Part shown: piece by piece, positions 5,095-63,310 of the stretch | Layout: each line of letters begins with the position of its first letter | How positions within the stretch are numbered: the first letter of the stretch is position 1 | NCBI RefSeq assembly: GCF_006345805.1 | Contig: NC_043004.1 | Span: 66,154,001 to 66,218,000, forward strand | Source of the DNA: Octopus sinensis | Taxonomy: Eukaryota | DNA: 64,000 nt | Direction: 5' to 3' | Program-made: the position numbers and the translations under genes | Notes under the pieces: generated by a model | What the model saw: only the letters and a program-made list of their open reading frames with translations | Told to the model about the DNA's origin: nothing | Databases searched by the model: none

Positions 5095-5139
5095 CGCACG
5101 GACTATAGTTTCGAGGTTTTTGCCTCTCGTCAACGTACG
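5095..5139 (-). ncRNA. Minimal type I hammerhead ribozyme motif (U3 variant)
   Basis: Minus strand reads cgtacg-TTGACGA-gagg caaaaa cctc-GAA-actatagt-C-cgtgcg, identical to the core of 5446-5490. Confidence 0.8.
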
Positions 5140-5443
5140 GCAATCACCGGTTTTCGATGAGGAGAGACCTGTTTGCGAATATCTATTTAATGTTTTTCCC
5201 AGCAACCACTGTCACTGATTTCGAAAAACTGTCTGAAAGCAATAATAAATCTCTGAACAAGATGTAAACAGTAACCGCTCGACAATGTAAAGTATACTAG
5301 CCATCTCAATATGGCTAACCACTAAGGGTGGGTGTTACTGAAGCTTTTAGCCCCAGGAGATCATCGTCTCCAGCTGACTTTAGACACAATTCCTGTGCCC
5401 TTATGATATTCGCAAAGGGAGGTCATCCCCTCTCGTAAGTAAT

Positions 5444-5492
5444 TACGTACGTTGACGAGAGGCAAAAACCTCGAAACTATAGTCCGTGCGTA
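5444..5492 (+). ncRNA. Minimal type I hammerhead ribozyme motif (U3 variant), predicted cleavage after GUC at 5484
   Basis: Stem I tacgtacg/cgtgcgta (one G-U), core UUGACGA, stem II gagg/cctc, GAAA, palindromic stem III actatagt, GUC triplet. Confidence 0.85.
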
Positions 5493-5649
5493 TCACTTAG
5501 GTTTACGAAAGGGGATGACCTCCCTTTGCGAATATCATAAGGGCACACAGAAAGCGTGTCTAAAGCCAGCTGGAGACGATGATCTCTTGGGGCAAAAAGC
5601 TTCAGTAACACCCATCCTTAGTGGTTAGCCATATTGAGATGGCTAGTAT

Positions 5650-60200: not shown

Positions 60201-60624
60201 TTCCTCACTTCTCTTTTCAGCGCTGCATTTATATATTAACTTATGCTGCTGTTGTTCAACAGGCGCTGCCTAAGTGATACCATATATATACATACATATA
60301 TGTATATATATATATATCCATATATATATATATATATATATATATATATATATTATATATATGTACATATATATATGTATATATATGTATTATATATATT
60401 TATATATATATATATAATATATATTATATATATATATATATATATGTATATATATATATTTATATATATATATATCTTTATATATACACACTTATACATA
60501 TCTATACATACATATGTGTTTATATGTATGTGTATGTACACACACACACACACACACACACATATATATATATATATATTTATATTTATATATATATATA
60601 TATATATATATATATATATATATA

Positions 60625-61850
60625 CACGTGTTGGGGAAAATAATGGAAACATCTAGCATCGTAATTTTGAAATATCTGTAAACCGCCAAAAGCTTGTTTA
60701 TTTTTATACTTTTTGATATATTACCATTGTTGCTTAATATGTTTTGCTAAAATTCCTGTTTCTTTTCAGATTTCATCAGAAAAAGGTAATTAAAATTAAT
60801 TAAACTTACAGATCTATCGATCTTACAAAGAGGTAACATTGTTGGTGCTCGTATGGCAGGCGCTAGCGTGACGAAAACAGCCACAATATTTGGTGTCTAA
60901 AGAAGTACTATCTCGAAAATAATGACAACCTTTTAGAAAGAGGGGAAAAAAACCAAAGAAAACCAAAACTTTCAGATAGGGACCGTCGGACTCTTAAGCG
61001 AATTGTTAGAAACGTTCACAAAAGTACAGTTCCCAGAATAATGGCAGAGTTTAATGACCACCTCGAGAACCCAGTTTCCACAAAAACTGTTCGCCGGGAG
61101 CTGTAATACCTGCATTTCACGGGAGGGTTGCAATCACAAAACCACTACTTTCAAAAGCAAACGTTGCAAAGTATTTTGAGTGGAGTAAAGACCTAGAGCA
61201 GTGGAAGGATGTTATTTTCTCGGACGAGTCATCCTTTGCCTTATTTCCAATCACCTGCCAAGTATACATGTGGAGACAGGCAAAAGAAGTATTTGATACA
61301 GGCTGCCCTCTTCCAACTGTTAAAAATGGAGGAGGACTGTGATGAGCGGTTGAGGGGCTATATCTTGGAAATCCGTTGGCCCAATGATTTCCCTTCGTGG
61401 CAGACTTAATAGTCAAGACGATTTAAGCATTTTATCTGATCAAATTCAGCATATGGTTGTAGAACTGTTTCCGGGGGGAGGGGGCAGTCTTTCAGGATGA
61501 TAATGCATCAATTCACATAGCTAAATTTGTTACTTAATGGCACGAGGAACATTCTAGTTGAACAGCGTATCTCGCCATCACAGTCTCCAGATCTCAATAT
61601 TATTGAACAGTTATGATGGATTTTAGAAAAAACATGTAAGGCACGATATCCTCCACCATCATCACTACAAGAACCGGAGACTGTTTTAGCTGAAGAATGG
61701 ACAGTAATTCTTTTGGAAAAAATTCAATGTTTGTACGAGTTCATACCTCGTAGAATTTAATTAGGAATTACTGCCAAACGCGGTCCTAATCTCTATTAAA
61801 ATACATTTGCTTGAAAGTTTAAGTTGTTTCCATTATTTTATCCAACCCCG
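60625..61850 (+). mobile_element. Decayed full-length Tc1 (DD34E-type) transposon in (TA)n
   Basis: TIRs gttggggaaaataatggaaaca / tgtttccattattttatccaac with TA flanks; transposase GASVTKTA..LSDRDRRTL..KPLLS..VIFSDES..TVKNGGG..FQDDNA..SPDLNIIE, with stops. Confidence 0.92.
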
Positions 61851-63103
61851 TATATAAATATACATATAACTATAAATATAATATATATATATACGTATAT
61901 ACTTGTCTATATACTATACATATATATATATATACATATATACACACATATATATAAATATATACACACACACATATATATATATATATATGTATATATA
62001 CATATATATTACTATAGATATATATGGATACATATGTGTTTGTGTGTGGTGTATGTGGGTGTGTATACATATGCATATAGCCTTATCTCTCGGTGACTTA
62101 ATTTTGTAATGGAACGTTTATTCTCTGCAGCAAAAGTAAGTATATATCCTGTAAATGTAAGCTACACCACAACCTGTAATTATTATCTCCTTTAGAATAA
62201 TATTATCATTTTTTGATATGTCACCATGTACTATATCATTTAAGAAATCATTAAATAAATCAGTACGTTCCCAGCATATGCAACATAAATACTCGAAGAC
62301 AAATAAGGAAAAAATACGAAATTCCTGAAAATGTTAGATATATACGAATTTAGGTTATTTTGATGTAACTTTATTATAGGTTATATCAACTGGATTAAGA
62401 ATGTTCGGTGTAATAATGTCACTTTTGTTTTTGGCTTCGTACATTCTATCACATATTGGACTTCAACTGATGGTTATCTTCCTTCATTCGTAGAAATATA
62501 TAATTTAAATTGGCATATTATTGCAGAAAATGTTACTGCTGATTTATTTATTTACGTTTATATATTCATGTTACATTTTCACCATTTTAAAATAATATCG
62601 TACATTTCCGTTTTTACATTTCGCCGGCTAGATGCGAAGGTATATACCCCCCCCCCATTAATAATGTTTTTTTTAGTACATGCTTTCCGATCGCTTTCCG
62701 ATATAATACTATATCATTTTACTGATTCTGTTGGAATAATATGTACAGTGAAAGTGCTGTACATAGGTTCGGGATAGATATCTCAACAACTTTCATTTAT
62801 GTCGTGATAGCTTTGGAGTTTTCCAGACAGATATTTCATTTTCAATAGGACTGGTGAAACAGCGATACAACGCGGATATAGTAATAACAAAGTGTAACTA
62901 CAACAAAAAATTAACCGTTGTGAGACCATCGGTATCATTTAGCATTATGAAAGTTCTGCAGTTTTGTTGGATATAGTTCATTTGCTAGTATATTCTAATG
63001 GGAAAGTTAATTTAGATATATTTTCGCATATATATATATATATATATACACATATATATAATATATATATATATTATATATATATATATATGTGTGTGTG
63101 TGT

Positions 63104-63310
63104 GACCGCGTGTATGCCGTTGCCGATATTTTTTCCTTCGTCTTCCCTTCTCTGGATCTTTCCTTTCCCTATGTTTCTGACGAAGAGCTCCGCTCGAAAC
63201 GTTAAACACTCCTTCTTCCTTTCCTTGCTGAGCGTCCAATAATACTATATTTGTTCCACGTCCTCGCGTTGTTCTGTTTTCTTGTTGTGTTTTCATGTTT
63301 GGATTAACTT
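63104..63310 (+). mobile_element. Solo Penelope pLTR-like insert between (TG)/(TA) tracts
   Basis: About 200 bp pyrimidine-rich unit containing the hammerhead motif; same layout (hammerhead then gagcgt) as 21888-22035. Confidence 0.55.
63172..63208 (+). ncRNA. Minimal type I hammerhead ribozyme motif, canonical core plus extra A, predicted cleavage after GUU at 63203
   Basis: Stem I tgttt/aaaca, CUGACGA, extra A, stem II gagc tcc gctc, GAAA, palindromic loopless stem III (aacgtt). Confidence 0.82.

What the first reader, a model, noticed from the sequence alone, without database searches (positions are those of the whole stretch)
5095..63208. Four hammerhead loci in 64 kb, each with a different catalytic-core variant
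Seen: cores are UUGACGA (5444/5095), CCGAUGA or CCAAUGA with extra A and G flanking stem II (8544/8711), CUGCUGA plus extra A (21907) and CUGACGA plus extra A (63172). Stem III is palindromic with different sequences in the three non-decayed families (actatagt, acagctgt, aacgtt). All loci lie in or near (TA)n tracts. Inference: conserved architecture on divergent sequence argues against chance and implies a large, diverse genome-wide load of dimer-dependent ribozymes, some of which strict CUGANGA searches would miss.
Basis: partly seen in the sequence, partly recalled or inferred. Interest (0 to 1): 0.72.

Follow-up and report, generated by a model that had tools for sequence, protein, structure and literature searches.

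The report
Penelope hammerheads with family-fixed core changes
These are hammerhead (self-cutting RNA) motifs at the tail ends of Penelope-type jumping genes and a short relative, a known pairing, but three of the four families carry an altered catalytic letter shared by tens to thousands of copies, which likely slows cutting and would let one test whether these elements need the cut.

Summary
The six motifs are real minimal type I hammerheads in four repeat families; a fifth, canonical locus (24364, minus) was missed. Three families are 3' tails of Penelope-like elements (PLEs); F1 (5095/5444) is a 355-nt ORF-less relative. PLE hammerheads with palindromic stem III, an extra base before stem II, dimer dependence and (TA)n targets are published, so F4 (63172) is ordinary. 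The other core changes are inherited, not decay: U3 in 34 of 35 F1 copies; C4 in one F2 lineage (52 of 100 copies); U6 in 99 of the first 100 of 13,933 F3 copies, with N7 free, and in both repeats of full-length elements. The window's CCAAUGA and CUGCUGA are copy-level departures from those consensuses. Relaxed searches give 19 motifs in 800 kb versus 1.7 shuffled, only 4 canonical; family profiles extrapolate to about 70,000 copies. The window is not unusually rich, and its copies are truncated, cannot pair in cis and are likely inert. Cleavage is untested. The scan noted the same variants, and the LINEs that target F1-type repeats, on other DNA before.

The parts
4929..5438 (-). F1 repeat, about 1.4 tandem units of a 355-nt ORF-less hammerhead element
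   Evidence: direct repeat spacing 355; blastn to a family unit; tandem junction also in L207
5095..5139 (-). F1 hammerhead: stem I 6 bp, core UUGACGA (U3 opposite G8), stem II 4 bp, stem III ACUAUAGU, predicted cut after 5101
5439..5648 (+). F1 inverted copy (PLE-type inverted end)
   Evidence: inverted arms of 97-104 nt
5446..5490 (+). F1 hammerhead, same core, stem I up to 8 bp, predicted cut after 5484
8546..8632 (-). F2 inverted, truncated copy; core CCGAUGA 8578-8572 (C4); ends at N17, so stem I cannot form
8672..8971 (+). F2 tail of a Hydra-like PLE (clade inferred, no tree)
8711..8758 (+). F2 hammerhead, core CCAAUGA = CpG-decayed CCGAUGA; unpaired A and G flank stem II; stem III ACAGCUGU; predicted cut after 8754
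21904..22030 (+). F3 tail of a Neptune-like PLE, decayed copy
21907..21942 (+). F3 hammerhead remnant: C6, A12 and a broken stem III; family core is CUGUNGA plus A, stem III ACGU
63101..63310 (+). F4 tail of a second Neptune-like PLE, ending in (TA)n
63172..63208 (+). F4 hammerhead, canonical CUGACGA plus A, stem III ACGU, predicted cut after 63203
24315..24368 (-).
   Evidence: relatives in L161, L170, L349
24548..24862 (-). Decayed PLE endonuclease C-terminus 180 nt upstream of the fifth hammerhead
   Evidence: tblastn E 2e-7 with the F2-linked endonuclease

Best explanation
The motifs are minimal type I hammerheads at the 3' ends of Penelope-like retroelements and of a 355-nt ORF-less relative; the core changes U3 (F1), C4 (one F2 lineage) and U6 (F3) are shared family-wide, and these variants likely still fold and would cut slowly, probably as pairs, in the parent RNA, while the truncated window copies are likely inert. 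Shown: motifs, family consensuses, link to RT/GIY-YIG frames for F2-F4, two same-strand hammerheads around full-length F3 elements, compensatory stem changes. Inferred: a read-through transcript of the partial tandem carries two hammerheads that pair through the palindromic stem III and cut after N17, trimming the RNA to unit length; a single change at position 3, 4 or 6 lowers the rate but was tolerated in source elements that went on spreading; reverse transcription from the 3' end scatters 5'-truncated tails, often with an inverted partner, into (TA)n.
For: F3: 26 of 30 loci picked by the endonuclease protein read CUGUUGA 610-980 nt downstream; 3 of 5 long-ORF loci have two same-strand CUGUUGA hammerheads 4.3-4.5 kb apart; 13,933 exact-flank matches, first 100: U6 99, A6 0, exact CUGUNGA 90, N7 U47/A21/C17/G15 (hand count); only 130 matches with A6. 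The one core position that varies at lineage level is N7, the free position of working hammerheads. F1: U3 in 34 of 35, C3 in 0; sister lineages have C3. F2: 934 matches; first 100: C-rich-loop lineage 32 of 32 U4, A-rich-loop lineage 52 C4, 15 U4, 1 A4, with 9 G5A, the pattern of CpG decay (hand count). F1 clade: 97% of cells paired and one double change in each helix. F3 and F4 stem I differ by a compensatory pair. C4 recurs in at least 5 lineages and U3-A8 in another family. The double hammerhead is the lowest-energy dimer for F1 and within 0.4 kcal/mol for F2. Natural U4C lowers activity in vitro yet supports viroid infectivity, and natural A6C cleaves slowly (PMC3088659, PMC7151607).
Against: No cleavage data. 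In a pairwise scan of one hammerhead, single changes in the CUGA turn had low activity except the 3-8 swap (PMC9901934); A6C cut the Mg2+ rate about 10^5-fold at 0.3 mM in one ribozyme (PMC7151607). The double hammerhead is 13-15 kcal/mol above the best dimer fold for F3 and F4. Insertion ends show no clear pile-up at the cut site in F2-F4 and only a few events in F1 and F5. The descriptor and patterns fix many positions, so invariance of G5, A9 and GAAA is partly built in. Covariation rests on 10 hand-picked rows of 27, about 4 lineages, and the count of pairs with double changes was reached by 95 of 500 shuffles. Naiad PLEs spread without canonical hammerheads (PMC8557442). No PLE frame was found for F1.
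Confidence: 0.55

Rival explanations
1. Relaxed relic: PLE replication does not need the cut, so source elements fixed damaging core changes by drift and the stems persist only because the lineages are young.
For: Three different damaging changes in lineages that kept spreading, F3 with 93-98% endonuclease identity among most of 145 listed matches; Naiads lack canonical hammerheads and it was proposed that hammerheads may parasitise PLEs (PMC8557442 passages); weak predicted dimer for F3 and F4; no clear end pile-up.
Against: In F3, lineage-level change falls on N7 only; two or three independent changes all at that one of seven positions has odds of roughly 1 in 50 to 1 in 350 under neutrality (hand estimate). 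Compensatory changes in all three helices; U3-A8 covariation.
Confidence: 0.27
2. Fold kept for a non-catalytic job: the junction and palindrome serve as an RNA dimerisation or protein-binding signal for the PLE reverse transcriptase, so stems and some core bases are held while catalysis is lost.
For: Explains conserved shape with changed catalytic letters; Cervera and de la Pena note low in vitro activity and leave other functions open (PMC4209133).
Against: G8 or the 3-8 pair, G12-A14 and NUH are kept in all families found by homology, as catalysis would require; no binding data.
Confidence: 0.15
3. Chance or copy-level decay of canonical hammerheads.
For: True for the window's CCAAUGA and largely for its F3 copy; F4 is canonical in 12 of 22 parsed loci.
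Against: Shuffles give 1.7 versus 19; family cores are non-canonical in 34 of 35 (F1) and 99 of 100 (F3) copies.
Confidence: 0.03

Closest known systems
Minimal hammerheads (min-HHR) in pLTRs of metazoan Penelope-like elements (Cervera and de la Pena 2014, PMC4209133; seen: main text parts 1-2 of 4, supplement part 1 of 3 and passages)
   Same: Type I, short stem I, extra base between 9 and 10.1, palindromic stem III, thousands of mostly single truncated copies, some close inverted pairs, two copies around full ORFs, predicted dimers.
   Different: Published consensus is CUGANGAH, with U3-A8 as the reported core change; here U3 opposite G8, C4 and U6 are fixed in whole lineages. No octopus entry in the supplement text searched.
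Hammerheads of Hydra-clade PLEs (Craig et al. 2021, PMC8557442; seen: passages, supplement part 2 of 59 with File S2)
   Same: Longer palindromic stem III (ACAG..CUGU, ACUA-U-UAGU), single bases flanking stem II, (TA)n targets, inverted and partial-tandem ends; matches F2 and the 24364 locus.
   Different: All cores listed in File S2 are CUGANGA; F2 has a C4 lineage.
Small-stem-III hammerhead variants that cleave as dimers (Lunse, Weinberg, Breaker 2017; not held, seen only as a citation and through the review PMC6765202, passages)
   Same: PLE association, short palindromic stem III, dimer cleavage.
   Different: Could not check whether its tables already hold these core variants or this animal.
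Non-LTR retrozymes (Cervera and de la Pena 2020, PMC7229834; seen: passages)
   Same: F1 is an ORF-less hammerhead repeat of about 355 nt in head-to-tail units.
   Different: F1 has a minimal, U3 hammerhead, PLE-type inverted ends and short arrays; circular RNA not shown.
Natural core variants U4C, A6C, U3-A8 (Perreault et al. 2011, PMC3088659, section 8 and passages; PMC7151607, passages and Table 1)
   Same: Same positions; low but real activity.
   Different: Rare single ribozymes with tertiary support; A6U not named in the text searched; here variants are amplified to thousands of copies.

Membership tests
PLE minimal hammerhead | Type I topology with stems I and II around the core | tested here: met
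   stem I is missing only in the truncated 8582-8546 copy
PLE minimal hammerhead | Core CUGANGA, GAAA, NUH (F4 and 24364 locus) | tested here: met
PLE minimal hammerhead | Core CUGANGA (F1, C4 lineage of F2, F3) | tested here: not met
   one fixed change each: U3, C4, U6
PLE minimal hammerhead | Extra base between 9 and 10.1; G10.1-C11.1 pair | tested here: inconclusive
   both met in F3 and F4; F1 has the pair without the extra base; F2 can be read as extra A plus extra G or as a mismatched 10.1-11.1 pair
PLE minimal hammerhead | Palindromic stem III | tested here: met
   ACUAUAGU, ACAGCUGU, ACGU; centre changes keep the palindrome
PLE minimal hammerhead | At the 3' end behind an RT plus GIY-YIG frame, in both pLTRs (F2, F3, F4) | tested here: met
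   F3; F4 L339 and F2 L336 (endonuclease only); Pfam GIY-YIG scores 15.9-20.1 are below the 22.6 cut-off; clade names rest on motifs, no tree
PLE minimal hammerhead | Linked PLE ORF (F1) | tested here: not met
   355-nt monomer; the only shared upstream frames found in 30 loci belong to inserted LINEs
PLE minimal hammerhead | Self-cleavage as a dimer | not testable with these tools
   folding favours the dimer for F1 and F2, not F3 or F4
Non-LTR retrozyme (F1) | ORF-less tandem monomer of a few hundred nt with one type I hammerhead | tested here: met
Non-LTR retrozyme (F1) | Canonical core | tested here: not met
   U3 in 34 of 35
Non-LTR retrozyme (F1) | Expressed as linear and circular monomer RNA | not testable with these tools
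   only contigs were served
Rfam hammerhead families | Match to a curated model | tested here: not met
   none among the 150 of 191 rows shown for the window, none at 5060-5560, none at gathering score in 3 loci

The most novel reading that the evidence does not exclude
CUGUNGA (A6U) is a selected, working hammerhead core, slow or dependent on a metal, partner RNA or the PLE protein, carried by a recently active Neptune-like PLE in about 14,000 or more copies; together with recurrent C4 and U3 cores it shows that PLEs tune their ribozyme down, and that strict searches miss most of the animal hammerhead load.
Probability: 0.3. Interest if true: 0.68.

Novelty: new variant of a known kind. Interest (0 to 1): 0.36.

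Why it matters
What hammerheads do for Penelope-like elements is open. Sister lineages in one genome that differ by a single catalytic letter (F2 U4 versus C4, F4 U4 versus C4, F1 C3 versus U3, F3 U6 versus F4 A6) give matched natural pairs for cleavage and retrotransposition assays. Practically, a strict CUGANGA search would miss about four in five intact-looking motifs in this genome sample. The window's own copies matter little.

Tried and rejected
Rfam found no hammerhead. First descriptor was too strict and found only F1; the second allowed even palindromes only and missed 24364. Pile-up of insertion ends at the cut site: none clear in F2-F4; F1 starts at -1, +1, +1 and ends at -3, -1, 0; F5 starts at -1, +2, +3; microhomology explains several; inconclusive. 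Expression: no RNA holder listed; contigs of three runs guessed as RNA and one unlabelled run cover F1 relatives but cannot show strand, ends or level; an apparent excess of A8 in the guessed-RNA runs rests on 2-4 contigs and was not used. Idea that the ORF upstream of some F1 copies is F1's own gene (Terminon-like or gag-bearing PLE): rejected, it is an inserted LINE with target duplication. Idea that C4 is compensated by the extra base before GAAA: rejected, the U4 lineage of F2 has the extra base too and C4 copies of F4 lack it. A shared junction in L226 and L229 hinted at joint mobilisation of LINE plus repeat; not resolved. A candidate at 58004 (-) had no family in the loci held. Lunse et al. 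2017 is not held; its tables and the unseen parts of other supplements may already list these variants. Print searches that found no A6U or octopus PLE hammerhead variant report; for LINEs targeting hammerhead repeats.

Full report
Setting. The window is G000:C8:66154001-66218000 of a 2.72-Gb animal genome, rich in microsatellites. Its repeats look like those of an octopus; that label is recalled and echoed by earlier scan notes, not tested.

Observation. All six motifs are present. F1: 5446-5490 (+) and 5139-5095 (-), core UUGACGA, stem II of 4 bp, stem III ACUAUAGU, N17 C. F2: 8711-8758 (+), core CCAAUGA, and 8582-8546 (-), core CCGAUGA, which stops at N17; both have an unpaired A and G around stem II and stem III ACAGCUGU. 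F3: 21907-21942, CUGCUGA plus A, with G12 and the palindrome broken. F4: 63172-63208, CUGACGA plus A, stem III ACGU. F2 and F3 copies fail the descriptor and are placed by family profiles. F2-F4 are 20-195 nt from (TA)n, F1 is not. Rfam gives nothing.

Load. In 80 evenly spaced 10-kb stretches of contigs C1-C17 (800 kb) the descriptor finds 19 motifs against 1.7 in 10 shuffles (16 against 0.8 at score 8 or more); 4 of 19 have CUGANGA. Six family profiles give 21 hits, some not covering the hammerhead, and 0 on reversed sequence; this extrapolates to about 71,000 copies (44,000-109,000) and 1.7 per 64 kb, so four loci is unremarkable (P about 0.09). Small chromosomes and unplaced contigs were not sampled.

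Parents. F3: a Neptune-like frame (RT, cysteine linker, GIY-YIG) precedes the F3 motif in L202. Searching with its endonuclease gave 145 listed matches, mostly 93-98% identical; of 30 loci, 26 read CUGUUGA 610-980 nt downstream, 1 was out of register, 1 had a profile hit that was not parsed and 2 had no hammerhead. Three of 5 long-ORF loci carry two same-strand CUGUUGA motifs 4.3-4.5 kb apart around the frame, the classical PLE layout. F4: L339 links it to a sister RT plus endonuclease, 44-72% identical by segment. F2: three long copies run about 1.3 kb upstream into a GIY-YIG C-terminus with a CxH end, with fixed 3' ends near +75 and +220 and an inverted partner in 13 of 30 loci; Hydra-like by motif. 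Pfam GIY-YIG scores are below the curated cut-off and no tree was built. F1 is a 355-nt ORF-less monomer in partial tandem plus an inverted copy; 13 of 30 loci have an inverted partner.

Fixed variant or decay. F1: 35 exact-flank matches, U3 in 34, C3 in none, A8 in 4; sister lineages have C3 and other palindrome centres. F2: 934 matches; among the first 100 (hand count) the C-rich-loop lineage is U4 in 32 of 32, the A-rich-loop lineage is 52 C4, 15 U4, 1 A4, and 9 of the C4 copies have G5A, as expected from CpG decay on either strand. The window's CCAAUGA is such decay; the flanking extra base is family-wide. F3: 13,933 matches with the seven core positions left open; first 100 (hand count): U6 99, C6 1, A6 0, exact CUGUNGA 90, N7 U47, A21, C17, G15; a near-identical pattern with A6 gives 130, about 1%. 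The window's C6 is rare (decay or a minor branch). F4: of 25 loci chosen by upstream sequence, 22 parsed: 12 canonical, 7 CCGACGA, 3 further C4 types from one duplicated segment. So the window shows one canonical locus, two family-fixed variants (U3, C4) and two copy-level departures from variant families. Across the 1.87 Mb held, C4 recurs in at least five lineages and U3-A8 in another family.

Is the fold selected? In 10 hand-picked rows of 27 distinct F1-clade motifs, 97% of cells pair and each helix has one double change (0 of 500 shuffles reach the cell count and covariation score, 95 of 500 reach the pair count; few independent lineages). Contigs of related copies show the double change at the palindrome centre in most of their depth. 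In F3 the only core position that varies at lineage level is N7. Folding two copies together gives the double hammerhead as the best structure for F1 (-35.8 against -32.0 for two monomers) and within 0.4 kcal/mol for a family-type F2, but 13-15 kcal/mol above the best for F3 and F4. In read-through RNA of the window's inverted pairs the F1 motifs, and most of the F2 (+) motif, are predicted to be paired with their antisense copies; no locus has two same-strand motifs. Insertion ends do not clearly pile up at the cut site.

Mechanism. Shown: anatomy, parents, inherited variants. Inferred from PMC4209133 and the review PMC6765202: tandem transcripts bring two motifs together through stem III and cut after N17 to release unit RNA. 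Inferred here: U3 opposite G8, C4 and U6 slow the cut. Natural U4C and A6C are slow but active (PMC3088659 section 8; PMC7151607 Table 1), whereas single changes in the CUGA turn were low in a mutational scan (PMC9901934 passages). I put 0.55 on a slow working fold, 0.27 on a relaxed relic, 0.15 on a non-catalytic signal.

Known versus new. The PLE link, palindromic stem III, extra base, U3-A8, large loads, inverted pairs and (TA)n targets are published (PMC4209133; PMC8557442, whose File S2 also lists single bases on both sides of stem II and only CUGANGA cores). I found no report of lineage-fixed U6, C4 or U3-G8 in PLE hammerheads in searches, but Lunse et al. 2017 was not available and most of two supplements was unseen. 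Earlier scan notes report the same variants in this genome and in others; they are unchecked and the framing as a natural test is taken from them.

Side finding. Following F1 led to LINEs with an APE endonuclease, RT and a zinc-knuckle ORF1 (L201, L251, L252) and 1.7-kb ORF1-only relatives, inserted with 12-16-nt duplications 12-25 nt before stem I of F1 and of related repeats F5-F7. Of 30 loci picked by the ORF1 protein (2 were seeds), a hammerhead follows the 3' end in 22, another unit at the same site in 5, and the 3 without a 3' end have the repeat upstream. More distant members sit in other repeats behind TATA-like words (8 of 20 hand-picked arrays lack a hammerhead flank), and the hammerhead targets also lie 20-30 nt behind such words, so start-site targeting is a rival to ribozyme targeting. 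Tx1 LINEs that target transposons are known (PMC4494074 passages); the clade was not tested; an earlier scan note reports this in another genome. The window's F1 copies have no such insert.

Verdict. Real, a new variant of a known kind; interest 0.36.

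Noticed in passing
L201:1437-8620, L202:2600-6400, L206-L235, L241-L255: Tx1/L1-type LINEs and ORF1-only relatives, often with open frames and in tandem arrays, insert at one fixed site 12-25 nt before the hammerhead of F1 and related repeats, with a 12-16-nt duplication; at least 5 of the 35 F1 pattern matches carry one.
   Followed up: partly
L236, L237, L239, L240, L245, L246: A more distant branch of the same ORF1-only LINE sits 20-35 nt behind TATA-like words in repeats without a hammerhead; the hammerhead targets also follow TATA-like words, suggesting insertion at transcription starts.
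   Followed up: partly
window 24315-24862 (-): Fifth, canonical hammerhead behind a decayed Hydra-like PLE endonuclease.
   Followed up: yes
L254:8604, L241:7678, L255:8623, L181:2082: Further 350-nt hammerhead repeats related to F1: F5 (C4 core, stem III ACACGGUGU or ACACGUGU), F6 (U3-A8 core with variable N7), F7 (canonical), and one with U3.
   Followed up: partly
L122, L140, L144, L007, L342: Another abundant hammerhead family with long loop II and stem III ACUC-N-GAGU, split into U4 and C4 lineages.
   Followed up: no
L130 (two inverted copies): Motif with core CUGCCGA (C6) and stem III AAUU.
   Followed up: no
L252:7526-7560, L233, L015, window 8546: Several junctions fall on or within a base of the predicted cut site; microhomology is present in most.
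   Followed up: partly
window 5650-8343 (-): Decayed LINE with APE endonuclease and RT between the F1 and F2 loci.
   Followed up: no
window 40923-45070 (+) and 32947-33400 (+): Near-complete LINE with RT and a restriction-like endonuclease end, and a 3' fragment of a relative; earlier scan notes report permuted hammerheads in such 3' UTRs, not checked here.
   Followed up: no
window 17824-18434 and 19329-19913: Two similar runs of TAC, AAT, TTA and ATC repeats about 1.5 kb apart, suggesting a local duplication.
   Followed up: no
window 48401-48781 (+): Short frame resembling a Helitron-type helicase end (label recalled, not searched).
   Followed up: no
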